Origin: Escherichia coli
GTDB lineage: Bacteria; Pseudomonadota; Gammaproteobacteria; Enterobacterales; Enterobacteriaceae
DNA: 40,001 nucleotides
Reading direction: 5' to 3' (one strand)
Assembly: GCA_011601165.1 (NCBI GenBank)
Contig: GCA_011601165.1_4547.1
Shown here: in pieces, positions 4,944 through 27,551 of the stretch
How positions within the stretch are numbered: position 1 is the stretch's first letter
Layout of the letters: each line of letters opens with the position of its first letter
Notes under the pieces: model-generated
Databases searched by the model: none
What the model was told of the DNA's origin: nothing
What the model saw: only the letters and a program-made list of their open reading frames with translations
Program-made: the position numbers and the translations under genes

Positions 4944-6507
4944 CTTGAGCCATGTCCTCACCAGCTCCCTGACCTACAGCAGCGCCCATGTTAGCACCAG
5001 CAGCAGACGCACCGTTGACCACAGCTCCTTGAGCGGATTGTTCAGCCATACGTTGCAACTTCTCGTCCTGGGTCAGCAGTAGACCAGCGGTGTCAATACC
5101 TAAGGCATTCAGCAGTCGCAGCTTCAGGGTCGGCAAGTTAATGTCAGGGTCCTGAGAGAGCTGCTGAAGACCAGTCATCATGTTGATTGCCTGAGTCAGC
5201 TTCTCTAAGTCTTGACCACGACCTAACGCTTCCAGACCGGTGGAGACCGTAGGCTCTACCACTTCTTTCGGAAGGTCAGGAATCATGCCAGCAGACTGAA
5301 GCTGGTTCATCAGCACACGGACGATAGGTAACTGAAGCTCTTGTGACTGTACTGAGTACACGCCACCTAAGGTCGCCTCCAGTTCGCCAGCAACATAACG
5401 AATCTCTTCAGCAGTGACTCGCTCGGCATTACGCTGAACAGCACTATTAAGAAGGAAGGCCCATCCTAAACGTTGCTCGATAGCATCAGCCACCGACTTG
5501 GCAATCGTAAAGTCCTGACCTTTCGTCAGTTGCAGGAAGTTGATGTCCTCAACGCGACCAGCCACGAACTCACCTGTAGCCGCCTTGTTCAGACGTCGAG
5601 GTTGCGTGATACCGTTCGGGTTAACGAGGCCCACCACCTTGGAGGCTACCTTAGCCATTTTGGTGATAGCTTCTGTAATCGTCTCCAGCGAGTTGAGGTC
5701 GCCCAGATACTCCTCGCAGTAAGAACGACCGTAGTCTTCACCATCCAGTCGAACCATTCGTACCGGGATGTATGGACATGCAGTCAGCGGGTAGGAACCA
5801 TCGGTCCCTGCTACCTCAATGCCTTCCACTTCCTCGTAACGCAGGTACTCGTCGTCCTGACGGTAGATGTGCGTATACACTTCAAGCTCGGTGTCAGGCT
5901 CATAGTCGTCTGCGTTGAGTTGAGACTTCACGTCTTCTGGTAGAGCACTAAACGCTACCTTGTCGAGAGTCACAATCTGCAAGATGTTACCGAACGCATC
6001 ACGTTGAACAACGTAAGACACTAAGCGGTACATTCTCATGGGACTGTAGGTCCCCTGTTCAGGCTCTGGAATGTAGAGCAGACAGTTACCGGAGACGATA
6101 AGCTGCTTCAGAGCTTCGAACAATGGCACACGGAAACTGTTAGTCTCCATGTAAGCCATCAACACACGCTCGACCATAGCCAGCCCTTCGTCAACACGAG
6201 CAGCCGCCTCTGAGTCCTGACTCAAGGTCTTGGCCTCATATTCGGAGACCGTCAGTCGCATCCATGGTGACTGAGGGAATAACGCCAACATCAGCTTTGC
6301 AGCCAAGTTGTTCAAGCAGCGAGCACCTACAGCTTGCCATGGAGTGGTGTACTCAGTAGACGAGTTGTCGGACTCCTTGGGAAATAGCGAGGGGATGGTC
6401 ACGGCAGCGCAGTTCTGTGCGCGTGTCTCATACGGCTGTCTTCCGTTCTTCAGTCTATCATAAACTGACTTCGCGCCTTCAGCAGCAAATCCTTCACGTT
6501 CAGCCAT
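4939..6507 (-). CDS. 8: portal (head-tail connector) protein (T7 gp8)
   Basis: 522 aa; N-terminus MAEREGFAAEGAKSVYDRLKNGRQPYETRAQNCA matches T7 gp8 as recalled; SD GGAGG. Confidence 0.95.
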   Translation of the reverse strand: MAEREGFAAEGAKSVYDRLKNGRQPYETRAQNCAAVTIPSLFPKESDNSSTEYTTPWQAVGARCLNNLAAKLMLALFPQSPWMRLTVSEYEAKTLSQDSEAAARVDEGLAMVERVLMAYMETNSFRVPLFEALKQLIVSGNCLLYIPEPEQGTYSPMRMYRLVSYVVQRDAFGNILQIVTLDKVAFSALPEDVKSQLNADDYEPDTELEVYTHIYRQDDEYLRYEEVEGIEVAGTDGSYPLTACPYIPVRMVRLDGEDYGRSYCEEYLGDLNSLETITEAITKMAKVASKVVGLVNPNGITQPRRLNKAATGEFVAGRVEDINFLQLTKGQDFTIAKSVADAIEQRLGWAFLLNSAVQRNAERVTAEEIRYVAGELEATLGGVYSVQSQELQLPIVRVLMNQLQSAGMIPDLPKEVVEPTVSTGLEALGRGQDLEKLTQAINMMTGLQQLSQDPDINLPTLKLRLLNALGIDTAGLLLTQDEKLQRMAEQSAQGAVVNGASAAGANMGAAVGQGAGEDMAQA

Positions 6508-12588: not shown

Positions 12589-12604
12589 GGTTAATCCTCC
12601 GCTT

Positions 12605-12650
12605 TAGTCTAATCATAAAGGCCACTCGATGTGAATGACCTTGAGTCTAG
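12605..12650 (-). promoter_or_regulatory. conserved RNA hairpin, candidate RNase III site upstream of gene 5
   Basis: mRNA GACTCAAGGTCAT…GTGGCCTTTATGATTAGACT; one of four copies of the AAGGTCA/TGGCCTT stem. Confidence 0.5.
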
Positions 12651-12652
12651 AC

Positions 12653-12817
12653 CTAGAAGTCTGTACGCAAGAAGTGATACATGAACTTCCGGTTAGCTTT
12701 CTTCCATGCCTCAGAGTTGAACCGCTGGTCTCCCAGAATGTTCGACAGGCAGGTAGCTTCATCGCTCCACCATTTGTACATGAACCGATGGTATCGAGCT
12801 TTAAGTTTCTTAAACAC
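12653..12817 (-). CDS. small basic protein, 54 aa (gene 4.x region)
   Basis: GTG start 7 nt after GGAGG; MFKKLKARYHRFMYKWWSDEATCLS…; not in ORF track (under 60 aa). Confidence 0.4.
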   Translation of the reverse strand: MFKKLKARYHRFMYKWWSDEATCLSNILGDQRFNSEAWKKANRKFMYHFLRTDF

Positions 12818-12859
12818 TAACGGTCCTCCGTAAAATTCTTATAGTCAGCGATGTCCCGA

Positions 12860-14563
<1,704 letters not shown>

Positions 14564-14866: not shown

Positions 14867-15325
14867 TTAACCGTGGTCGGAAGTGACCAGTTCATCGGTA
14901 GATAGCCAGCGCTGTAAGTCAAAACTTGGACACGCCTTGGGTGCTACGTCATGGTGCGCTTTTATTTCTGCCTGAGGATACAGGACCTTCAGGTCAGCCA
15001 GCTTGTTGCGTAGGGATGTCATCTGGGCCTGAGTGAAGTTGGCTTCAAACTTGCCCTTAGCGTCAATTCCACCTACAAGGCAGACGCCTACAGACCGGGA
15101 GTTCCAATCTTTAACATGTGACCCTACGACATTGACCGGGCGGCCCTCTTCCACAGTCCCATCTCGCTTGATGATAAAGTGGTATCCTACGTCCAGCCAG
15201 CCCTGCTGCTTATGCCACATACGGATAGTCTCTACCCCGATGTCCATCTCTGGCTTGGTAGCCGAACAGTGAACGAAGATAGCGTCAGTCCGGGACCGTG
15301 GGTTGAACTTCACTTTACTCACCAT
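14867..15325 (-). CDS. 3.5: lysozyme / N-acetylmuramoyl-L-alanine amidase (T7 gp3.5)
   Basis: …DAIFVHCSATKP…GWLDVGYHFIIKRDGTVEEGR…HHDVAPKACPSFDL… closely resembles T7 lysozyme as recalled. Confidence 0.95.
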   Translation of the reverse strand: MVSKVKFNPRSRTDAIFVHCSATKPEMDIGVETIRMWHKQQGWLDVGYHFIIKRDGTVEEGRPVNVVGSHVKDWNSRSVGVCLVGGIDAKGKFEANFTQAQMTSLRNKLADLKVLYPQAEIKAHHDVAPKACPSFDLQRWLSTDELVTSDHG

Positions 15326-16728: not shown

Positions 16729-16751
16729 CTGTCCTACAGTGATAGTTTAGG
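16729..16751 (-). promoter_or_regulatory. phage RNAP promoter (phi2.5 equivalent), variant
   Basis: CCTAAACTATCACTGTAGGAC. Confidence 0.65.
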
Positions 16752-16905
16752 TCTCAGGACGAATCCGTCCGACCACAAACCCTGCATCCTCATACTCTTG
16801 GGACTTCAGGGTAGCCTCTTCAAGAGACTTTGCGTACACCGGAACCTCGAAGGATTGAACTCGACCCTCAAGCTCCACGATGTACTTCTTCTCAACCTCA
16901 GTCAT
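16747..16905 (-). CDS. 2: host RNA polymerase inhibitor (T7 gp2-like)
   Basis: 52 aa [52 protein letters not shown]; SFEVP.YA..L.EA…GF.V.R.RP matches T7 gp2 as recalled; SD AAGGAG. Confidence 0.75.
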
Positions 16906-16983
16906 AAACCTCGCTCCTTCCAATGGTTATATAACGTAATGTAGTCCGGGTTGAGAGTCTTCTCATACATCTCCCGGCACCAC

Positions 16984-17720: not shown

Positions 17721-17752
17721 GGTCCAGACGCAAAGAAACCCAGCAGTCCGAA
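17721..17752 (-). terminator. intrinsic terminator after ligase gene (early terminator TE equivalent)
   Basis: mRNA CCCAGTGGTC-TTCG-GACTGCTGGG then TTTCTTTG; 10-bp stem with two G-U pairs and a UUCG tetraloop. Confidence 0.7.
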
Positions 17753-17773
17753 GACCACTGGGTTGACGTTTAG

Positions 17774-19065: not shown

Positions 19066-19245
19066 TTATACTCCTACGAAGTATTTCTCTTGGTTGACCA
19101 GAGAGTCTTTGCCTTCAGCGTTACGGAAAGCGCCCTTTACACCACCACCACGTTTAGTCTTGTTCAGCTTGCGTCCCTTAGGAATGTAACCTTCAGTCTG
19201 CTGACGTTCACGGATGCGCTCAAAGTTGATAGTGTTCTGATACAT
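19066..19245 (-). CDS. 1.1: gp1.1-like basic protein, 59 aa
   Basis: MYQNTINFERIRERQQTEGYIPKGRKLNKTKRGGG…; KGRKLNKTKR matches T7 gp1.1 as recalled; missed by ORF track. Confidence 0.65.
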   Translation of the reverse strand: MYQNTINFERIRERQQTEGYIPKGRKLNKTKRGGGVKGAFRNAEGKDSLVNQEKYFVGV

Positions 19246-19279
19246 ATGGCTAAATCTCCAGTAGTGTTTATTTAGGGTT

Positions 19280-19320
19280 AATCATGAAGGCCACGACTTT
19301 TAGTCATGACCTTTAGTCTA
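19280..19320 (-). promoter_or_regulatory. conserved RNA hairpin, candidate RNase III site (R1.1 equivalent)
   Basis: mRNA AAGGTCATGACTAAAAGTCGTGGCCTT. Confidence 0.5.
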
Positions 19321-19341
19321 ATCCTATAGTGATAGTTTAGG
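19319..19341 (-). promoter_or_regulatory. phage RNAP promoter (phi1.1 equivalent)
   Basis: CCTAAACTATCACTATAGGAT. Confidence 0.8.
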
Positions 19342-19631: not shown

Positions 19632-22313
19632 TTAAGCGAATGCAAAGTCTGAAGACAAGATGTCTTCGATATTCAGTTTACCTTTCTTCGGAAGCTCAGG
19701 CAGCTTGTCGCGTTGGCTCTCATGAAGTTGGTATTCAAACTGCTCGTAGAAGTCAAGCAGCACATCGTTGTCGCGGTAGGTCTCGACCATCGTCTCACGG
19801 ACACCCCGGAACAGATACTCAGCGTCAGCCGGGATGGTCCCGAAGCTATCGTGAATCACTGCGAACGACATCACGCCATACTTACGGTGAGTGTGGACTA
19901 CAGTCTTGCGGAGGTGGCTACCATCTTGTGAGTGGACGAAGTTCGGGCTAATGCCTGACTCCTGCTTGTGCTTATCCAGCTCTTTCTTCGTGCCTTTATT
20001 GACTGTAGGCTGAAGGTTGAATGACCCTAAGAACATCAGGTTCAGACGCGTGGTATCCTTCTTGCGGTATTCCTGCCATACCGGGAACCCATCAGGTGTG
20101 ATCCAGTGTACCGGAAGGCAAGGCTTCAGGATTTCGCCAGTCTTCTTGTCCTTCACTTCAGCAGCCAGCAGCTTGGCAGCACCTTGAAGCCACTTCATCG
20201 CGTCAACCGCAGCAACTACGGTCACGCTCACAGCTTCCCAAATCATCTTAGCCATGAAGCGAGACGCTTGGCTTGGCTCGGTGAACATAGCGCCAGACCC
20301 TGAGTCAATCGCTGGCATTACGATGTCCTCATAAACTTGGTCTGCGAAACCATACTCTTTCGACCCGTAGGCCAGAGTCATGACTGAACGCTTAGTGACC
20401 TTGCGTGACATGCCGTAAGTCAGCCACTGCCGGGCCAGCTCTCGTGTCCCCAGCTTGAGACGTTCGGTAATCTCACCAGTTTTCTTGTCCTCGTGAGTTA
20501 CCATCTCGTTGTCCGTGCCGTTAACCAGCAGGACTTTAAGCTTCTCCTCAATGCGGTCAGATACGATGCGGTAGATGTCTTGGACCTTACCGGAAGGCGT
20601 CAGGTTTACTGCATGTCCACCGATGTGATCACGCAGCATCGCGCTGAAGTGCTGAATCCCAGAGCAGGACCCATCGAATGCTATCGGCAGCGAGCAGGAG
20701 TAAGACAATCCGTGGTGCATTACGCCAGCATACTCGAAGCAGAACGCTAGGAAGCAGAACGGAGAGTCTAACTTGCCCCACCACTCAATGCTGTCCATCG
20801 GTGCCTTAGCAGTAGCCATGATGTTGTCGTGGTTGTCTTCCACCCACTTGATGCGCTCCTCGAAGGTGACTTTATCAATACCCGCACAGTTTGCACCGTG
20901 GACCTTCAGCCATTTGAAACCGTCAGCACCAATAGGCTTACCGACTGCCAGAGTAAGGAGACCCTTCTGCATGTCGTTACCCTGAGGGTTGAACATCGGC
21001 ACAGCGTAGACGCGACCGCGCCAGTCCATGTTGTACGGGAACCAGATGGCCTTGAACTGGGAGAACTTGTTCGCCTGGTTAACGATAAAGCTCAGTGACA
21101 ATCTGCGTGACTGCCGGGCCTTCTCTCGGCGGTAGATACCAGCAGCAGCCTTCTTCCATGCCTTCAGTTCTTCCTCGGTCTCACCCGCATAGTCTTCAGG
21201 CTTCAGCGGCTCCATCTGAGGGATGTCGTCAATAGGCGTGTTGTTTAGCTTCTCGACCGTGTTCACCACTTCCAGCACCTTCTTGTTTACCTTCCAAGGT
21301 GTATTCTGGATGATGTTCACAGCGTCATAGACTTCAGGCATGTACACGTCCTCGTAACGCGCCACCGCAGACTTAGACCCTAAGCGAATCAGTGGTAGCG
21401 GTCTGCGACCTTTGGCCCAGTACCCACCGCCTACAACACCAGTCCACGGCTTAGGTGGAACGACGCAAGGCTGGTATACTGGAGCGATGCCCGCAAGGCT
21501 GAAGCCTCGTTGTGCCATCTTCTTGACCCAGAAGTCTGACAGGTGGATCATCTCGACGTCAGCCGCTGCATTGCCAGCACCGTAACGCGTAAGCTCGACC
21601 AGTTGTGTAGACTGAATGACAATCTCAAGCATCTTGATTCCAACGTGGACAGCCTCGGTCGGACTCCAAGTCCCCCACGCATCTTCTAGTTGACCTTGCT
21701 CCAGCATGGACGTCTCAACCGCTTGCATGTAGGCTTTCTTGTAGGATGCCCCTGCTCGCTTGTTCAGGTTATCAGCTATCGCCTTCTTGAAGTGCTCCTT
21801 CTCCTTGTCACGAATGCGGCCGAATCGGATTTCATCCTCAAGTGTGCGGCCTATCGCGGAGGCCATCGGTGTAATCGGTATCCCTTCAGGCTTGATCAGC
21901 TTGGAGAGGATGACCTTCAGTATGATAACCGCAGCAGACTCACAGGAGATGCGCAGAGAGCGGTCCTTTACGGCCTTCTCTTCAGTGCTCAACATGGTGA
22001 ATGCTACGCTAGGACGAGAGGTTGACAGCTTCCCGTCTGGACCTTCATGCCACTCCTTGACAGCTTGCGCAATCTTAGGTACCAGAGTCTGCATCAAAGG
22101 CTTGGCGACCTGATTGTCTGCCAGTTCCCCGCGCTCAGTCTGTCGCTCAAGGTTCTTGATGAAACGTCGCTCGCCTTCAGTGTATGCCTCATGCTCAAGC
22201 TGAAGCTGTTTGACTGCAAGGTCTTGCCCGTAGTGGTCAGCCAGCAGGTTAAACGGCTCAATAGCGTTAGATACATCAGAGAAGTCGTGTTTGTCAATGG
22301 AGATGACGCTCAT
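19632..22313 (-). CDS. 1: single-subunit DNA-directed RNA polymerase (T7 gp1)
   Basis: 893 aa; …HDSFGT…, C-terminus …DFAFA; colinear with T7 RNAP as recalled; recognition loop region differs from T7. Confidence 0.97.
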   Translation of the reverse strand: MSVISIDKHDFSDVSNAIEPFNLLADHYGQDLAVKQLQLEHEAYTEGERRFIKNLERQTERGELADNQVAKPLMQTLVPKIAQAVKEWHEGPDGKLSTSRPSVAFTMLSTEEKAVKDRSLRISCESAAVIILKVILSKLIKPEGIPITPMASAIGRTLEDEIRFGRIRDKEKEHFKKAIADNLNKRAGASYKKAYMQAVETSMLEQGQLEDAWGTWSPTEAVHVGIKMLEIVIQSTQLVELTRYGAGNAAADVEMIHLSDFWVKKMAQRGFSLAGIAPVYQPCVVPPKPWTGVVGGGYWAKGRRPLPLIRLGSKSAVARYEDVYMPEVYDAVNIIQNTPWKVNKKVLEVVNTVEKLNNTPIDDIPQMEPLKPEDYAGETEEELKAWKKAAAGIYRREKARQSRRLSLSFIVNQANKFSQFKAIWFPYNMDWRGRVYAVPMFNPQGNDMQKGLLTLAVGKPIGADGFKWLKVHGANCAGIDKVTFEERIKWVEDNHDNIMATAKAPMDSIEWWGKLDSPFCFLAFCFEYAGVMHHGLSYSCSLPIAFDGSCSGIQHFSAMLRDHIGGHAVNLTPSGKVQDIYRIVSDRIEEKLKVLLVNGTDNEMVTHEDKKTGEITERLKLGTRELARQWLTYGMSRKVTKRSVMTLAYGSKEYGFADQVYEDIVMPAIDSGSGAMFTEPSQASRFMAKMIWEAVSVTVVAAVDAMKWLQGAAKLLAAEVKDKKTGEILKPCLPVHWITPDGFPVWQEYRKKDTTRLNLMFLGSFNLQPTVNKGTKKELDKHKQESGISPNFVHSQDGSHLRKTVVHTHRKYGVMSFAVIHDSFGTIPADAEYLFRGVRETMVETYRDNDVLLDFYEQFEYQLHESQRDKLPELPKKGKLNIEDILSSDFAFA

Positions 22314-22382
22314 ACTTAAAGTCCTTGTTATTAGTCTTTCACTTAAAGTCTCTTTGGTCTTTCACTTGGAGTCTTAGACCTT

Positions 22383-22405
22383 TAGTCCTATAGTGATAGT
22401 TAAGT
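22383..22405 (-). promoter_or_regulatory. phage RNAP promoter directly upstream of the RNAP gene
   Basis: ACTTAACTATCACTATAGGACTA; about 75 nt before the gene 1 ATG. Confidence 0.7.
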
Positions 22406-22671
22406 CAGAAACATTTACATATCAGTGGGTTAGCGTGAAGATGACTGAAGTCACCATGAGTCGTGTGCTTGATGGTTGATCGTTGGTCTATCGCCTTCCA
22501 GCCTGAGACCAGAAGTTTACCATCTTCGGTGATCGGTCGTCCACCATACGCCAGACGCAGCAGTTCGGACTTATGGCCCTCAGCTATCATGCGGCGCTGT
22601 AAGAACATGTCACGCTGCATCTGCTCCACACGGCTACGGCTAGATGGTTTGTTAGTGTATGCGGTTTTCAT
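22405..22671 (-). CDS. hypothetical early protein, 88 aa
   Basis: ORF coupled to upstream gene (ATGA overlap). Confidence 0.55.
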   Translation of the reverse strand: MKTAYTNKPSSRSRVEQMQRDMFLQRRMIAEGHKSELLRLAYGGRPITEDGKLLVSGWKAIDQRSTIKHTTHGDFSHLHANPLICKCF

Positions 22672-22868
22672 TTCAGTTTGCTCCCAAGAGTTGCTATATC
22701 CCAGACGTTCGCTAAGTTGCGCATGAATCGTCCGTTAGGTTGACGTACAGTCCAGCGGCCCAGACGTACATAGTTGAATTTGTAGACTTTACGCGCTTTG
22801 TTGATGTCTCTCACCAGCACGTAGGCGATAAGTCCATAGCCTATGGCTATCAATAGTGCAAGACTCAT
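22668..22868 (-). CDS. small membrane protein, 66 aa
   Basis: N-terminal hydrophobic helix MSLALLIAIGYGLIAYVLV then basic tail. Confidence 0.55.
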   Translation of the reverse strand: MSLALLIAIGYGLIAYVLVRDINKARKVYKFNYVRLGRWTVRQPNGRFMRNLANVWDIATLGSKLK

Positions 22869-22954
22869 AGTGATTTCCGTTTAATGCAGTCGTATAACCC
22901 ATAGCCTATCAGCCAAATAACTGGCGCTAGGCAGACCCAATATCCCACACTCAT
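22865..22954 (-). CDS. 29-aa membrane peptide, paralog-like of the 66-aa protein
   Basis: MSVGYWVCLAPVIWLIGYGLYDCIKRKSL; SD AGGAG; stop overlaps next ATG; shares IGYGL with neighbour. Confidence 0.45.
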   Translation of the reverse strand: MSVGYWVCLAPVIWLIGYGLYDCIKRKSL

Positions 22955-22984
22955 AGTTAACTCCTATTAATGCAAGTGGTAATC

Positions 22985-23018
22985 TTTGAGGCCACCTATC
23001 AGTCGATGACCTCTCGTC
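22985..23018 (-). promoter_or_regulatory. conserved RNA hairpin variant, candidate RNase III site
   Basis: mRNA GAGGTCATCGACTGATAGGTGGCCTC. Confidence 0.4.
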
Positions 23019-23028
23019 TATCACTCTC

Positions 23029-23400
23029 CTACACCTCCACCGCTACAGTGGTCATCTTGGTTACAGTCATCCCACCAGCAAGCTCAACCGCATAGCGTAT
23101 CGCCTCCTCTTTGGACTTGAAGTCCTTTCCTGCAAGGTGGTAAATGTCGCCATTAACTACTTTGTTTGGCCTGCGACTCACTGATACAGCGTTACTGAGG
23201 CAAAGCTCACCCTTTAACCACTGAGCGTGCCAGCGCATTACGCTCTTATCTGATACGCCGAAGTCCCTTGCCACCATCCCCACCATGGATTCAAGTCCGG
23301 AGGTACCGTATTGTGGCTGGCGAACTAAATCATACGCCTTCGCTACTCGGATTTTAAACTCGACTGTGTAGCTGTTGCGGGTTTTCGCGTTGGTGCTCAT
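23029..23400 (-). CDS. early DNA-binding protein with transposase-type helix-turn-helix, 123 aa
   Basis: …YTVEFKIRVAKAY…MVARDFGVSDKSVMRWHAQW… resembles IS3-family OrfA N-terminal HTH; no DDE domain. Confidence 0.6.
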   Translation of the reverse strand: MSTNAKTRNSYTVEFKIRVAKAYDLVRQPQYGTSGLESMVGMVARDFGVSDKSVMRWHAQWLKGELCLSNAVSVSRRPNKVVNGDIYHLAGKDFKSKEEAIRYAVELAGGMTVTKMTTVAVEV

Positions 23401-23434
23401 TAGTATATCCTCTGTTAGTTATATAAGTGACAAT

Positions 23435-23466
23435 CAGTCAGGCCCTTCAGTCAAAGGACCTGTAGT
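23435..23466 (-). promoter_or_regulatory. RNA hairpin, candidate RNase III site (R0.5-like)
   Basis: mRNA CAGGTCCTT-TGACTG-AAGGGCCTG; related copy upstream of gene 0.3. Confidence 0.45.
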
Positions 23467-23476
23467 CTGGCACTCG

Positions 23477-23632
23477 TTACTTATCCTCAGCGTGCAAACT
23501 GTCGTGTATACGCTTGCGGCGATTGTAGACCACTTTCAAGAGACGCATAGTCGCATCGTGGTTCAACTGCCTGGTCTTGACCATAAGCCGGGCGCTAGTG
23601 ACGTGTTGCTGGCAGAGACCATAAGCTATCAT
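23477..23632 (-). CDS. small basic protein, 51 aa
   Basis: ATG overlaps Ocr stop (TGATG); not in ORF track. Confidence 0.4.
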   Translation of the reverse strand: MIAYGLCQQHVTSARLMVKTRQLNHDATMRLLKVVYNRRKRIHDSLHAEDK

Positions 23633-24144
23633 CACTCGCAGTCCTCCTCGGTAGGGTCGAACACTACGTTATCGTTGATGTCTTCGACCTTCAGGTGGCG
23701 ACCTACCGCATAGTGGTCTTTAGCACATGCAATAGCCTCGTAAAGTGATACAGCTTGCTCAATGATTATACCAGTCTTAGCGTCAACTACCCAGTATTCG
23801 TCCTCCTCGTCCTCCTCGTCGCTCTCTTCAGGCTCGAACCAGACCACCTCAGAGCTATTAGACACGTCGTTATATAATGCCTCATAGATGCGAGCTTGCA
23901 GTATACGCGTCACGTCCTTGGTCTCAGGCATCAGCCCGGAGTCTTCAAACTCATGGTCGATACCATCAGCAGCCATCACCGTGAAAATCTCGTGGTAATA
24001 ATGCGGAACCATATCGTCTACGACTTCATGCAGCGCATCGTGGTAGTCATCACCTTCAGCTATTTCATCGTACTGAATGCGCTCGTTAAATGCTTCAACG
24101 GTTGCAGCCAGCAGCTCATAGTATGCATTATCGTTACGTTCCAT
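23632..24144 (-). CDS. 0.3: Ocr-like DNA-mimic anti-restriction protein (T7 gp0.3 family) with C-terminal extension
   Basis: …VPHYYHEIFTVMAADGIDHEFEDSGLMPETKDVTRILQARIYEAL… matches T7 Ocr as recalled; 170 aa against 117 in T7. Confidence 0.85.
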   Translation of the reverse strand: MERNDNAYYELLAATVEAFNERIQYDEIAEGDDYHDALHEVVDDMVPHYYHEIFTVMAADGIDHEFEDSGLMPETKDVTRILQARIYEALYNDVSNSSEVVWFEPEESDEEDEEDEYWVVDAKTGIIIEQAVSLYEAIACAKDHYAVGRHLKVEDINDNVVFDPTEEDCE

Positions 24145-24184
24145 AGTTATATCCTCTCAAAGTTAAGTGTATGTTAGTGACTAT

Positions 24185-24225
24185 CAGTCAGGGCCTTCAG
24201 ATGTAGACTCAAAGACCCTGTAGTT
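24185..24225 (-). promoter_or_regulatory. RNA hairpin, candidate RNase III site (R0.3-like)
   Basis: mRNA CAGGGTCTT…AAGGCCCTG, imperfect stem. Confidence 0.45.
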
Positions 24226-24343
24226 AGTCGCTATCGGCGCACATTAAGAGTTTATCCAGATTTTTAAAGAGCATTCGCATTGGCTGTCGTCGCCGTGCTA
24301 GCCTGTTTCAGTGTTAGGCTTCACCGTTGTTTCAGTGTGGTAC

Positions 24344-24372
24344 ATCGTACAGCTTTTAAAGGAGGCTGTCAA
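24344..24372 (-). promoter_or_regulatory. host sigma70 early promoter (T7 A3-like)
   Basis: TTGACA-17 nt-TACGAT then GTACCACA, matching T7 A3 as recalled. Confidence 0.65.
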
Positions 24373-24490
24373 CCTGTTATTCTTTTACGCGGTGAGTGAC
24401 CGAATTCGACTCACGGCTAGTGCCTTATCCTTGGCTGGTCTCGGGCAGGTTTCTCGGTTCCTATCCCTACGCCATCTTGCTACGTGGTAC

Positions 24491-24520
24491 ATACTACTTT
24501 AAGTCGGTACAGCTTGTCAA
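24491..24520 (-). promoter_or_regulatory. host sigma70 early promoter (A2-like)
   Basis: TTGACA-18 nt-TAGTAT then GTACCAC. Confidence 0.55.
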
Positions 24521-24631
24521 CTACTTTCTGTCATCTGCCTGGTTTTCGTATGACTTATCAGGCTGTCTACTTAACCGGGATGACCCGGCGTCTTCACTAT
24601 CCGGTTGTTGCCGTGTCGTGTTGACGGAAGC

Positions 24632-24661
24632 TATTAAGCCACAGTATGGACCCATAGTCAA
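24632..24661 (-). promoter_or_regulatory. candidate host sigma70 promoter (A1-like)
   Basis: TTGACT preceded by AT-rich tract; -10 element poor. Confidence 0.3.
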
Positions 24662-24780
24662 TAGGTAATTTGAAATAATATTGATTGAGCTATCGTCGGC
24701 CCCATGGTGTAAGAGGATATAGTCTTTGACTAACATGTATTAGACCTTAAGTCTATAGCCATTGTGTCTATTAACTGTAG

Positions 24781-24875
24781 GTCTCTGACTGTAGGTGTTG
24801 GTGTCTTATGGTTGAGACAGTAGGTTAGTGAGGCTGTAGGTTGTGACTTATGGTTGAGACTTATGGTTATACAGA
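24781..24875. repeat. left-end short direct repeat array
   Basis: CTTATGGTTGAGAC twice plus CTGTAGG units on plus strand. Confidence 0.6.
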
Positions 24876-24876
24876 T

Positions 24877-25076
24877 AGGGACTCGGAGAAGACCAATAGT
24901 CCCGACCTATCGTCCCGACCTCCAGCCATAGCCTCAACCTATCGTTGACCTGAAGGCTTGACAGCTGGTCAAACCTTATGATAGACTGGAGGTATAGACC
25001 GAAGGTCTAGGGGTAGGGCCTTTGGTCGGACTGAAGGAGGGCCTATGGGGAGACTTGAGGTTCTTGAACTGTGAGA
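24877..25076. repeat. candidate direct terminal repeat, single collapsed copy (T7-like genome terminus)
   Basis: minus strand TCTCACAGT…CCCCATAGG… and …TCCCTATCTGT resemble the T7 terminal-repeat start and end as recalled; boundaries inferred. Confidence 0.3.
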
Positions 25077-25331
25077 TGTGGTCTCAAACTTTTGGTCCAA
25101 AACTCATCGTCACTACTGTAGGCCACAGCTAGCTTGCTAGCCACAGCCACTGTAGGTCAAGGACCGTATGTCAGGCGACACTAGGATAGACCAATAAGTA
25201 GGATGACCCTAAGTGAGCTTCTCTTAAGGTGTTACCTAAAGTCCTTGACTACAGTAGCTAAGGTCAGTAGAGTAGCGTCAGCTATGAACTGACCTTAGGT
25301 CTTACTTTCGTTGATTGTTACCATTACGGCG

Positions 25332-25490
25332 TTAATTACACTGAGACACCAGAGAACATACGAGAGTCTCGACCCACCCGACCCACTGGCTTCCAGCAGT
25401 AACGCCAGCAGCAAGTAGAACAGCAGCAAGAAACCTGTATGTAGCTCGATTGGTCGCCAGAGCTTTAAGTACAGCTTTGGTCTTTGCCAT
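25332..25490 (-). CDS. 19.5: gp19.5-like small membrane protein, 52 aa
   Basis: MAKTKAVLKALATNRATYRFLAAVLLAAGV…; TYRFL hydrophobic core as in T7 gp19.5 as recalled; SD AGGAGG. Confidence 0.6.
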   Translation of the reverse strand: MAKTKAVLKALATNRATYRFLAAVLLAAGVTAGSQWVGWVETLVCSLVSQCN

Positions 25491-25670
25491 ATGCTACATA
25501 CCTCCTGTATCTATGGTCGGTGACTATCTGTATTGGAGGGATTATGATTAATATCACCCTCCTTCCATCTGTGCAAGCCTTAGGTAAGAACTCGGAGTCT
25601 GCCTCCTAAGGTCTTGCATAAAGTCTGCATATGTATATTCACTACAGTAATACTATAAGTAACCGGGGGT

Positions 25671-25693
25671 CTTCCCTATAGTGATAGTTAAGT
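25671..25693 (-). promoter_or_regulatory. phage RNAP promoter (phiOR equivalent)
   Basis: ACTTAACTATCACTATAGGGAAG, after gene 19. Confidence 0.8.
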
Positions 25694-25787
25694 CCAAACT
25701 CCTTGTAAAACAGTAGGTTAGACTGGTAGTAACTATAGGTTACTAACCGCGTATTCATGCAGCTTTCACCTATAGTTATTCATTCAG

Positions 25788-27551
25788 CTAGTGGAACGTA
25801 ACGTATGACCCTAGCCCAAGCTCGTCGTCCATATCGTGAGTTACCCGGACCCCATTGTCCCAGAACTCAGTGTGGATGGACTCGAAGCCTTTCCGTGGGT
25901 TCTCCATCTGTTCCTCCAACCACTCCTCAGTGACTTCACGTTCACCTTTGTTGGCATCCTTAGCCATAGACTCAACGAAGAACTGCACACCGATAGCCAG
26001 TGCATCAAGTCGGTCATCGTGTGCCAAGGCTCCACGTTCACGAGAGATACGTGTCATCTGGTAGAAGAGAGAGTAGATAGGGTTACGAACACCATCCTTA
26101 TCAGAGGCTGACTGGTAGTCTTGGACGATAGCAGCAGCGTTAACGATAAGTCGGTGAGACCCCATGATAGGCTCCAGAACGTCACAGATGCGGAGTTCTT
26201 TCTGACCCTTACTCTTCACTTCAGTTACAGCAGCAGGATGGATACGGGCCGCTACAGGCTTGAATAGCTCAAGGTACATACCATCCCCGAAGTTGCCCTC
26301 AATGACGTACTCGTTGACCTTCCACTTACGACCAATCTTAGCCAGTGCTTCAAGCGTAGAGTCTTCATAGCCACCACGCATGCCACCAACTTCCATAGCG
26401 AAGATGTAGCCGTTGAGCTGGTACAGTACCGCATAACCAGTTTCATCCTTACCGCGACCACTAGGGTCAATGACCAGAATCTTCTGGGTGTACGAACTGA
26501 AGGCAGAACCTACAGTCTGATACGTGTGGTATGAGTCACCCATGAGTCCAACGTTAGGAACGTCCTCACGCTTGTTCTGAGGGTTAGGCAGCCATTGGTA
26601 GACCATTGGGCTGGATGCTGGGTCCAAGTCTGCTACGATAAGGTCACGGAGCTTCAGAGGGTACTTCTCAGCATCACTTAGGTTCGGGTTAAGCATAAAC
26701 TGTAGAGCGAAACCAGCTTTACCGTATGACAGCTCGCGTTCCTTCAGGTCTGTATCATCGAAGCGTACTTCATCAGTCGGACGCCAGTAGAAGGACTCAG
26801 GGTCCTCTTCAAGCTCTGCCTGAAGCATCGGTGCTAGACGGTCGCCGTAAGACTGCCAGTCCTTCCTGTCGCGTGGATAACGAGCAGGCCAGATAGTAGT
26901 GGTGTACCCACGACCTTCCAACTCACGATACAGGGTCATCTCGTTCTGAGGAGTACCCAGATAGATGATTGTACCTCCCGGCTTCAGGATAGCGTCGAAC
27001 TCTTTCACAAGCTCTGACAGACGGTCTCGTGCGGCCTGAGTCGCTGAGTTGTTCGGAACCTCCACGTCATCGGCAATCAGGATGTCAGCACGACTACCAG
27101 TCAACTGACCAGTGATACCAACGGACTTAACCGAAGGTGAGTGGTCTGGCTTGGCTGGTCCAACGTCGAAGCTGATAACCGCATCTCGCTGCCCCTGCTT
27201 AGGTTTTAGTTCCTGAAGCTGAGGCATGAGGTCGATGATTCGCTTGATGAAGATGGAGTTAGCATCGGCTCGTTCCTTTGAGGCCGACACAATCATGAAC
27301 TTCAAGTCTGGGTTGTTCCATAGCTTCCAGACAACGAAGGCACACGTAATGAAGGACTTCCCTATACCACGGAACGCCTGTAGGATGAAGCGCCTGTTGT
27401 CCCCAGCCGATAGTTTCTTCGCCATGTCAATCTGACAGCGAGTCGGGACTGGGAGTGACAGAGCTTTCCACAGTACGAACAGGAAGAACACGAAGTCTGC
27501 CTTCATACGTGCAGTCATTAGCGCCTGACGCGCCACTAAGTCTTTACTCAA
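25788..27551 (-). CDS. 19: terminase large subunit (T7 gp19)
   Basis: 587 aa; …[24 protein letters not shown]…[10 protein letters not shown]… as T7 gp19 as recalled; apparent TTG start with SD GAGGTG. Confidence 0.95.

What the first reader, a model, noticed from the sequence alone, without database searches (positions are those of the whole stretch)
22383..22405. Phage promoter directly upstream of the RNA polymerase gene
A near-consensus phage promoter sits about 75 nt before the gene 1 start codon. In T7, gene 1 is transcribed only by host RNAP from the early promoters. A cognate promoter in front of its own polymerase implies positive autoregulation, or replaces a missing left-end phiOL.
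Basis: partly seen in the sequence, partly recalled or inferred. Interest (0 to 1): 0.5.

Follow-up and report, generated by a model that had tools for sequence, protein, structure and literature searches.

The report
Phage promoter upstream of polymerase gene
A genuine promoter for the phage's own RNA polymerase sits 75 bases in front of that polymerase's gene, but every relative sampled from this phage genus has it and a 2008 database record already annotates it, so it is ordinary.

Summary
On the minus strand, 22405..22383 reads ACTTAACTATCACTATAGGACTA. It is one of 11 same-strand copies of this phage's 23-bp promoter family. It scores 31.5 bits with a matrix built from the other ten copies; the best unrelated site scores 17.7 bits. 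The predicted start, G at 22388, lies 75 nt before the gene 1 ATG at 22313.

The window is a Kayfunavirus (K1F/EcoDS1 group). The site is present at the same place in all 33 relatives sampled. Its specificity bases follow the polymerase. Lineages whose polymerase carries T3-like loop residues (D748/R756, T7 numbering) have ACCCTCACT here and at their other promoters. The rest (N748/N756) have ACTATCACT. This argues that the site is kept for recognition by its own polymerase.

EcoDS1's GenBank record (EU734172) already annotates the orthologous site as a phage promoter, so it is not new. The T7, T3, K11 and BA14 records show none here but carry phiOL at the left end. This genus lacks phiOL.

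Gene 1 lies in the host-transcribed early unit, and no terminator separates the promoter from it. Self-transcription of the polymerase gene is therefore the straightforward inference, but it is untested. The same wiring has been proposed for phages LUZ100 and phiA318. Interest is low.

The parts
22383..22405 (-). Phage RNA polymerase promoter 'phi1' (-17..+6), ACTTAACTATCACTATAGGACTA. Predicted start is G at 22388.
   Evidence: 31.5 bits. It is orthologous to the EcoDS1 'promoter phi' at 2244-2266. It is conserved in 33 of 33 relatives.
22314..22388 (-). 75-nt leader of phage-made gene 1 mRNA. It is 36% G+C and built of ~23-nt direct repeats (AGACTNNAAGTGAAAGAC, two copies plus degenerate copies). 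It ends in AAGGAC-N7-ATG, which I read as a ribosome-binding site.
   Evidence: There is no terminator-like hairpin with a U run, and it folds no better than shuffles (z = 0.40).
19632..22313 (-). Gene 1, a T7-type single-subunit RNA polymerase of 893 aa. Its specificity loop is TRLNLMFLGSFNLQPT (N748/N756 in T7 numbering).
   Evidence: PHROG 414, E = 0.
22405..22671 (-). Upstream early ORF (88 aa), aligned by BLAST over EcoDS1 and K1F gene 0.38. Its TGA stop (22407..22405) abuts or overlaps position -17 of the promoter.
   Evidence: PHROG 7066.
24632..24661 (-). First sigma-70-type early promoter, read by eye from the sequence (TTGACT, 17-18 nt, TTAATA). It corresponds to EcoDS1's 'host RNAP promoter' at 469-505.
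24491..24520 (-). Second sigma-70-type early promoter (TTGACA, 18 nt, TAGTAT).
24344..24372 (-). Third sigma-70-type early promoter (TTGACA, 17 nt, TACGAT).
17732..17764 (-). Early terminator TE-like hairpin (AACCCAG...CTGGGTT followed by TCTTT) just after the ligase gene. It marks the end of the host-polymerase early unit that contains gene 1. The hairpin was read by eye; the terminator scan did not list it.
   Evidence: EcoDS1 annotates TE at the orthologous place.
19319..19341 (-). Next phage promoter downstream of gene 1 (+1 at 19324). It is followed by a stable hairpin (AAGGTCATGACT...AGTCGTGGCCTT) that resembles the RNase III sites annotated in T3.
25671..25693 (-). phiOR-type promoter after the terminase gene (+1 at 25676). 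Reading up the window from phi1, it is the next family member, and no phiOL lies between the two.
16747..16923 (-). gp2-like inhibitor of host RNA polymerase. In T7, gp2 ends host transcription of the early genes.
   Evidence: PHROG 1307, E = 7e-24.
14867..15325 (-). gp3.5-like amidase/lysozyme. In T7 this protein binds and damps the phage polymerase.
   Evidence: PHROG 822, E = 5e-79.

Best explanation
The site is a working promoter for the phage's own T7-type RNA polymerase. It is the leftmost of 11 such promoters and is the ortholog of the promoter annotated in front of gene 1 in EcoDS1.

Proposed sequence of events:
1. After infection, host RNA polymerase starts at three sigma-70 promoters near the left end (about 24.66-24.34 kb).
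2. It reads through the early genes and gene 1 to the TE terminator at about 17.74 kb. This yields the first polymerase molecules.
3. The new polymerase binds the promoter at 22405..22383 and starts at G 22388.
4. It transcribes a 75-nt leader, its own gene and the downstream middle genes.

Gene 1 thus becomes both an early and a middle gene. Its transcription is reinforced by its own product and can continue after gp2 shuts off the host polymerase. The start sequence GGACTA (not GGGAGA, as at the capsid-gene promoter) resembles the weaker T7 class II promoters. By analogy with T7, the loop would be held in check by the gp3.5 lysozyme.

Shown here: family membership, position, conservation across the genus, co-variation with the polymerase's specificity loop, and absence of a terminator. 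Inferred: actual initiation at 22388, promoter strength, and any physiological benefit.
For: - Family membership: the site scores 31.5 bits with a matrix that excludes it, against 17.7 bits for the best non-family site. All 11 copies are on the coding strand, where 0.01 matches are expected by chance.
- One-to-one correspondence: the window's 11 sites match the 11 phage promoters annotated in EcoDS1, including 'phi' at 2244-2266, about 70 nt before gene 1.
- Conservation: the promoter lies 75-81 nt before the gene 1 ATG in 12 of 12 divergent GenBank Kayfunavirus genomes and 21 of 21 IMG/VR loci.
- Co-variation with the enzyme: GW1's genome-wide promoters are AACCCTCACTATAGG, and its gene 1 site carries the same CC at -10/-9. 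The GW1 polymerase has D748/R756, as T3 does. The window, Dev2 and Kc166A polymerases have N748/N756 with ACTATCACT promoters. In the IMG/VR loci, 18 pair N/N with TA and 1 pairs D/R with CC, with no exceptions.
- Experimental support for the promoter class: a T7 polymerase carrying the K1F specificity loop drives a promoter whose -12..-7 bases are the K1F-subfamily consensus, orthogonally to the T7 and T3 promoters (PMC3458549).
- No terminator-like site lies between +1 and the ATG. Gene 1 lies inside the host early unit, between the sigma-70 promoters and TE.
- gp2-like and gp3.5-like genes are present.
- Precedent for the same wiring: LUZ100 has a phage-specific promoter directly upstream of its RNAP, identified from ONT-cappable-seq transcription-start data, with a positive-feedback model (PMC10134795). 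phiA318 has a comparable proposal (PMC4099482).
Against: - I found no transcript mapping or in vitro transcription for any Kayfunavirus in the held literature, so initiation at 22388 is unproven.
- The site departs from the most common family sequence at -14 (T instead of A) and in +3..+6, so it may be weak.
- In the Dev2 lineage the orthologous site is off that genome's own consensus at -2 (TAAAGG versus TATAGG). This hints at selection for something besides maximal promoter strength.
- From my own knowledge, not verified here: engineered T7 variants that place gene 1 under its own promoter were hard to clone or grew more slowly. A benefit from feedback cannot be assumed.
Confidence: 0.85

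Rival explanations
1. The promoter's main role is at the DNA level. As the leftmost phage promoter in a genus without phiOL, it would supply the transcript that primes or activates DNA replication, or serve in concatemer processing. That is the role of phi1.1A/B (primary origin) and phiOL/phiOR in T7. On this view, transcription of gene 1 is incidental.
For: - No phiOL-like site lies between the terminal repeat and the early promoters, and EcoDS1 annotates none.
- The 75 nt after the start are the most A+T-rich of all 11 promoter-downstream stretches: 36% G+C against 50% for the window.
- One TGGTC lies on the template strand of the leader. From memory, this matches a T7 primase recognition site.
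- T3's annotated primary origin is a promoter followed by an A+T-rich stretch.
Against: - The position that corresponds to the T7/T3 primary origin, just downstream of gene 1, has its own promoter at +1 19324 with an equally A+T-rich downstream stretch (37% G+C).
- A single 5-mer primase site is expected by chance.
- The site is 2.7 kb from the left end, not in phiOL's place.
- JELG-KS1 and PFP1 have both a left-end promoter and a gene 1 promoter.
- This role would not exclude transcription of gene 1.
Confidence: 0.1
2. The promoter is active, but its transcripts add little polymerase protein. The promoter core forms the 5' arm of an RNA hairpin present only in host-made read-through RNA, possibly an RNase III site like T7/T3 R1. 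Phage-made RNA starts inside that hairpin, folds differently and may be poorly translated. The promoter would then mainly feed the genes downstream of gene 1.
For: - In read-through RNA, the core UCACU pairs with AGUGA about 45-52 nt downstream in all four lineages folded.
- The Dev2 lineage has a perfect 11-bp stem, UAUCACUAAAG/CUUUAGUGAUA, made possible by its off-consensus A at -2.
- T3 annotates RNase III site R1 in the equivalent spot before gene 1.
- The consensus fold of the leader pairs +3..+12 with the GACUUUAAGU just before the ATG.
Against: - The folds are not significantly more stable than shuffles: z = -0.7 to -2.0 and 0.4.
- None of the 9 consensus pairs shows a compensatory change, and the consensus energy is only -4.4 kcal/mol.
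- The hairpin (-15 kcal/mol) is much weaker than the annotated T3 RNase III sites (-21 to -22.5) and the hairpin after the 19324 promoter in this window (-22.1).
- No Rfam family matches.
Confidence: 0.04
3. The match is a chance or decaying copy of the promoter sequence with no function.
For: There is no direct transcription evidence for this site.
Against: - Shuffles give 0.01 expected matches.
- The site is conserved in 33 of 33 relatives.
- Its specificity bases switch together with the polymerase loop and the rest of the genome's promoters in the GW1 lineage.
Confidence: 0.01

Closest known systems
EcoDS1 'promoter phi' at 2244-2266 (GenBank EU734172) and the same, unannotated, site in K1F (AM084414)
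   Same: It is the orthologous site. It begins at the last base of the upstream gene (annotated gp0.38), lies about 70-75 nt before gene 1 and has the same core, TTAACTATCACTATAGGACT. All 11 promoters correspond one to one.
   Different: The differences are trivial (A rather than C at +6). The window's genome is only about 92% identical to the nearest database record over the early region.
T7/T3/K11/BA14 phiOL (left-end phage promoter)
   Same: It is the leftmost phage promoter and lies upstream of gene 1, so the phage polymerase can in principle read into its own gene.
   Different: phiOL lies between the terminal repeat and the host early promoters, 2.5-2.8 kb before gene 1. The window's site lies after the early genes, 75 nt before gene 1 and 2,689 bp from the left end. 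At that spot T7 and T3 instead have the minor E. coli promoter C, and T3 also annotates RNase III site R1.
LUZ100 phi1 (Pseudomonas T7-like phage; PMC10134795)
   Same: A phage-specific promoter lies directly upstream of the phage RNAP gene, and a positive-feedback model has been proposed.
   Different: LUZ100's promoters were identified from ONT-cappable-seq transcription-start data. LUZ100 is a distant, temperate-like phage with a MarR-type regulator thought to gate the promoter. I made no search for such a regulator here.
Vibrio phage phiA318 promoter phi-A8 (PMC4099482); Aeromonas phage JELG-KS1 and Pseudomonas phage PFP1 (this analysis)
   Same: A copy of the phage's own promoter family lies upstream of gene 1. 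It is about 90-110 nt before the ATG in JELG-KS1 and PFP1. In phiA318 it lies before the kinase and RNAP genes, with autoregulation suggested.
   Different: They belong to different genera with different promoter sequences. JELG-KS1 and PFP1 also keep a left-end promoter.
Engineered T7 'autogene' and ectopic gene 1 phages (Dubendorff & Studier 1991; Endy et al. 2000; cited from my own knowledge, not retrieved)
   Same: The polymerase gene is placed under its cognate promoter, which gives a self-amplifying loop.
   Different: Those are artificial constructs. Here the arrangement is natural and was found in every genus member sampled.

Membership tests
T7-group (Studiervirinae) phage RNA polymerase promoter, K1F/Kayfunavirus specificity class | A 23-bp match (-17..+6) to the genome's own repeated promoter family, on the coding strand and between genes | tested here: met
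   The site scores 31.5 bits with a leave-one-out matrix, against 17.7 bits for the best non-family site. All 11 copies are on the minus strand. The site lies between the stop of the gene 0.38-like ORF and gene 1.
T7-group (Studiervirinae) phage RNA polymerase promoter, K1F/Kayfunavirus specificity class | Invariant core CACTATAGG with an initiating G | tested here: met
   TCACTATAGGA matches exactly at 22396..22386.
T7-group (Studiervirinae) phage RNA polymerase promoter, K1F/Kayfunavirus specificity class | A cognate single-subunit polymerase is encoded in the same genome, and its specificity loop fits the -12..-8 bases | tested here: met
   N748/N756 loops pair with ACTAT promoters. D748/R756 loops (GW1, L035) pair with ACCCT promoters, including the gene 1 site.
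T7-group (Studiervirinae) phage RNA polymerase promoter, K1F/Kayfunavirus specificity class | Transcription by the phage polymerase starts at +1 | not testable with these tools
   This needs 5'-end mapping or in vitro transcription. The only indirect evidence is the K1F-loop T7 polymerase acting on a K1F-type promoter (PMC3458549).
Self-transcribed polymerase gene (positive autoregulatory loop) | A promoter recognised by the gene's own product lies upstream of the gene, on the same strand, with no terminator between | tested here: met
   The leader is 75 nt with no terminator-like site and no ATCTGTT pause signal.
Self-transcribed polymerase gene (positive autoregulatory loop) | Gene 1 mRNA initiated at this promoter accumulates and raises polymerase levels | not testable with these tools
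   No transcriptome or proteome data for any Kayfunavirus were found in the library.
phiOL (T7-type left-end promoter) | Located between the left terminal repeat and the host early promoters | tested here: not met
   The genome's left end maps to 25076 and the host promoters to 24661-24344. The site lies at 22405-22383, downstream of five early ORFs. It is therefore not phiOL.
T7/T3-type primary replication origin | Phage promoter(s) followed by an A+T-rich stretch with primase sites, where replication starts | tested here: inconclusive
   The leader is 36% G+C and has one TGGTC on the template strand. The 19324 promoter, at the position matching the T7/T3 origin, is equally A+T-rich downstream.
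T7-type RNase III processing site (R1) | A stable, irregular hairpin of about 50-60 nt just upstream of gene 1, conserved in structure | tested here: inconclusive
   A hairpin closed by UCACU/AGUGA recurs in four lineages. It is weak (-15 to -20 kcal/mol, z = -0.7 to -2.0), and the consensus fold of the leader showed no compensatory changes.

The most novel reading that the evidence does not exclude
The promoter is embedded in the 5' arm of a conserved RNA hairpin, a degenerate R1-like RNase III site. Host-made and phage-made gene 1 mRNAs would then have different 5' structures, processing and translation. That would act as a built-in brake, or timing switch, on the polymerase's self-amplifying loop. 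It would also explain why the Dev2 lineage keeps an off-consensus A at -2, which completes an 11-bp stem.
Probability: 0.1. Interest if true: 0.45.

Novelty: already known. Interest (0 to 1): 0.15.

Why it matters
The site shows that T7's textbook separation, in which the host polymerase makes the phage polymerase and the phage polymerase makes the rest, does not hold across the T7 group. A whole genus, and at least three other lineages, place a cognate promoter directly before the polymerase gene.

This matters for modelling infection timing, for predicting how such phages respond to inhibition of the host polymerase, and for engineering K1F-type phages and orthogonal polymerase circuits.

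The feature itself is already annotated in EcoDS1, and the idea has been published for other phages. What this analysis adds is comparative evidence of function: the site co-varies with the polymerase's specificity loop.

Tried and rejected
- Rfam scan of 21800-25800 at E <= 1: no family matched.
- Folding of the leader alone and with 90 nt upstream: no better than shuffles, z about 0.4.
- RNAalifold on 12 orthologous leaders: 9 invariant pairs, no compensatory change, -4.4 kcal/mol. No structured RNA element can be claimed.
- Literature: the K1F genome paper (Scholl & Merril 2005) and Chen & Schneider 2005 are not held. I could not check whether they discuss this promoter. Searches for Kayfunavirus, K1F or EcoDS1 promoter papers found no transcript mapping.
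- A fixed regular expression for the T7-group promoter core was too strict for T3, BA14, JELG-KS1 and PFP1. I replaced it with a de novo repeated-16-mer search. For T7, T3 and K11 that search picked other repeats, so I relied on those records' own annotation.
- phiOL as the identity of the site: rejected on position.
- A strict 'either phiOL or a gene 1 promoter' rule: rejected, because JELG-KS1 and PFP1 have both.
- A check for a long self-overlap of the window (25-mers): none found.

Full report
**What is at the coordinates**

The genes of this window run on the minus strand. Read on that strand, 22405..22383 is ACTTAACTATCACTATAGGACTA. An 893-aa ORF at 19632..22313 matches the PHROG 'RNA polymerase' family with E = 0. 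In an alignment built from the T7 and T3 gene 1 regions it is 63.6% identical to T7 RNA polymerase and 63.4% to T3's. With the G at 22388 as +1, the 23-mer spans -17..+6 in T7 numbering.

**Is it more than chance?**

- TCACTATAGGA with up to 1 mismatch occurs 10 times, all on the minus strand. Shuffles give 0.73.
- The 19-mer CTAAACTATCACTATAGGA with up to 3 mismatches occurs 11 times, all on the minus strand. Shuffles give 0.01.
- A weight matrix built from the other ten sites scores this one at 31.5 bits. The family spans 29.8-35.8 bits, and the best non-family site in either strand scores 17.7 bits.
- Its only departure from the most common 19-mer is T for A at -14. The promoters with +1 at 25676 and 39245 share this.

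**What the window is**

BLAST places the window in the genus Kayfunavirus (K1F/EcoDS1 group of the T7-like Studiervirinae), about 92% identical to the nearest records over the early region.

EcoDS1's left end aligns to window 25076 and its right end runs to about 24877. The window therefore carries the genome junction with a single copy of the terminal repeat.

Reading leftward on the minus strand from that end, the features are:
- three sigma-70-type promoters (about 24661-24632, 24520-24491 and 24372-24344);
- an ocr-like gene and four small early ORFs;
- the promoter in question;
- gene 1;
- a second phage promoter (+1 at 19324), followed by a stable hairpin that resembles the RNase III sites annotated in T3;
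- genes similar to 1.2 (dGTPase inhibitor) and 1.3 (ligase);
- a TE-like hairpin with a U run at 17764-17732.

Gene 1 therefore sits inside the host-transcribed early unit, as in T7. The phage promoter is embedded in that unit, 2,689 bp from the left end.

**Already annotated**

EcoDS1's GenBank record (EU734172) carries a 'regulatory/promoter, phi' feature at 2244-2266. It begins at the last base of gene 0.38 and ends about 70 nt before gene 1. That record annotates 11 phage promoters, which correspond one to one with the 11 sites in the window. It annotates three host promoters and no phiOL.

**Conservation**

I aligned the gene 0.38-gene 1 spacer from 12 divergent Kayfunavirus genomes whose recorded hosts or names include Escherichia, Salmonella, Cronobacter, Klebsiella, Enterobacter and Kosakonia. 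The promoter is present in all, 75-81 nt before the ATG. All 21 IMG/VR loci recovered with the polymerase N-terminus also have it, at 75-81 nt.

**Evidence of function from co-variation**

The specificity positions differ between lineages, and they follow the enzyme.
- In GW1, genome-wide scanning shows that nearly all its promoters carry CCCTCACT, the bases T3 promoters have at -11..-9. The gene 1 site has the same bases.
- The GW1 polymerase has D and R at the positions equivalent to T7 N748 and R756, as T3 does.
- The window, Dev2 and Kc166A polymerases have N and N there, with ACTATCACT promoters.
- Among the IMG/VR loci, 18 combine N/N with TA and one combines D/R with CC. There are no mixed cases.

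A site that changes its recognition bases together with the polymerase and with every other promoter of its genome is being kept recognisable by that polymerase.

Independent experimental support for the promoter class comes from Temme et al. A T7 polymerase carrying the K1F specificity loop activates a promoter whose -12..-7 bases are the K1F-subfamily consensus, orthogonally to the T7 and T3 promoters (PMC3458549).

**Comparison with other T7-group phages**

| Phage | Left-end promoter | Promoter directly before gene 1 |
|---|---|---|
| T7, T3, K11, BA14 (annotated records) | phiOL present | none; first later promoter follows gene 1 |
| SALSA, Leclercia 10164-302 (Teetrevirus; de novo search) | one family copy 3.0-3.2 kb before gene 1 | none |
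| Vibrio phage Rostov-1 (de novo search) | nearest upstream family copy is 1.5 kb before gene 1 | none |
| Aeromonas phage JELG-KS1 | present | about 90-105 nt before the ATG |
| Pseudomonas phage PFP1 | present | about 95-110 nt before the ATG |
| Window, Dev2, Kc166A, GW1 (Kayfunavirus) | none found | present |

In the 0.7-1 spacer, T7 and T3 instead have the minor E. coli promoter C, and T3 also annotates RNase III site R1. In the window the best minus-strand hit between 22405 and 25674 is 10.9 bits.

Two of its statements need adjusting:
- 'Only host RNAP' overlooks that phiOL lies upstream of the whole early region.
- 'Replaces phiOL' is only loosely true. The position differs, and some phages have both.

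**Literature**
- LUZ100 has a phage-specific promoter directly upstream of its RNAP, found from ONT-cappable-seq data, with an explicit positive-feedback model (PMC10134795).
- phiA318 has a phage promoter before the kinase and polymerase genes, 'suggesting autoregulation' (PMC4099482).
- I found no transcript mapping for any Kayfunavirus.
- The K1F genome paper and Chen & Schneider 2005 are not held.

**Mechanism I commit to**

Host polymerase makes the first gene 1 mRNA. The new phage polymerase then starts at 22388 and transcribes its own gene and the downstream middle genes.

No terminator-like hairpin or ATCTGTT pause signal lies in the 75-nt leader. A gp2-like inhibitor of host polymerase and a gp3.5-like lysozyme are encoded. 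By analogy with T7 (established knowledge, not tested here), host transcription of gene 1 would stop within minutes, and transcription from weaker promoters would be damped later.

The start sequence GGACTA differs from the GGGAGA of the capsid-gene promoter at +1 3926. This suggests a middle-class, moderate promoter.

Confidence that the site is a functional phage promoter that transcribes gene 1 is about 0.85. The size of any benefit is unknown.

**Rivals**
1. A DNA-level role (replication priming, or a phiOL substitute). The leader is the most A+T-rich promoter-downstream stretch (36% G+C) and has one TGGTC on the template strand. The 19324 promoter, at the position matching the T7/T3 origin, is equally A+T-rich (37%).
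2. Different fates for long and short leaders. In read-through RNA the promoter core UCACU pairs with a downstream AGUGA in all four lineages folded, and the Dev2 lineage has a perfect 11-bp stem that depends on its off-consensus A at -2. However, z-scores are only -0.7 to -2.0, no compensatory change was seen in the consensus fold, and the hairpin is much weaker than the annotated T3 RNase III sites.
3. Chance. Excluded by the counts and the comparative data.

**Verdict**

It is a conserved feature found in every sampled member of a well-sampled phage genus, already annotated in 2008, and the same wiring is known or proposed in other T7-like phages. Novelty: already known. Interest: low (0.15). 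The residual open question is how gene 1 expression is shaped by having two kinds of transcript. It is testable with standard 5'-end mapping.

Noticed in passing
window 24877-25076 (minus strand): The window contains the genome junction. EcoDS1's left end aligns to 25076 and its right-end terminal repeat runs to about 24877, with a CTATCTGT concatemer-junction motif near 24880. Only one repeat copy is present, so the source is a circularised or permuted assembly.
   Followed up: partly
window 22314-22388 (minus strand): The gene 1 leader is built of ~23-nt direct repeats (AGACTCCAAGTGAAAGACCAA and AGACTTTAAGTGAAAGACTAA, plus two degenerate copies). An exact AAGTGAAAGAC occurs only at these two places in the window. 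Variants of the pair persist in the Dev2, GW1 and Kc166A lineages. Their function is unknown.
   Followed up: partly
window 22336-22397 (minus strand); L003 (Dev2) 2385-2450: In host read-through RNA the promoter core (UCACU) can pair with AGUGA about 45-52 nt downstream in all four lineages. The Dev2 lineage has a perfect 11-bp stem that uses its off-consensus A at -2. This may be a degenerate RNase III R1-like site that phage-made transcripts would lack. It is not statistically significant.
   Followed up: partly
L012 (GW1) whole genome; L035; L007; L010: One Kayfunavirus lineage (GW1; L035 shows the same pairing, and Eclo_IJM and Ro103C3lw share the CC promoter type) has switched to T3-type promoter bases (AACCCTCACTATAGG). 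Where the polymerase loop could be read (GW1, L035), it has T3-type residues (D748/R756). This is a natural case of polymerase and promoters changing together within a genus.
   Followed up: partly
L043 (JELG-KS1) about 2054-2075; L044 (PFP1) about 5190-5212: Aeromonas phage JELG-KS1 and Pseudomonas phage PFP1 each have a copy of their own promoter family about 90-110 nt before gene 1, in addition to a left-end copy. Promoters in front of gene 1 therefore recur in several Studiervirinae lineages.
   Followed up: partly
window 12589-12860 (minus strand): The window, like EcoDS1, has no promoter before the DNA polymerase gene. Dev2, GW1 and Kc166A have one there (TTAACTATCACTGTAGGATAGACTCAAGGT type).
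   Followed up: no
window 19240-19324 (minus strand): The promoter after gene 1 is followed by a stable hairpin (AAGGTCATGACT...AGTCGTGGCCTT, -22 kcal/mol for the folded stretch) that closely resembles T3's annotated R1.1 and R1.3 RNase III sites.
   Followed up: partly
window 22405-24144 (minus strand): The early region has an ocr-like gene and four small ORFs but no ORF of the size of T7's gene 0.7 kinase. Dev2 and GW1 carry a kinase gene there.
   Followed up: no
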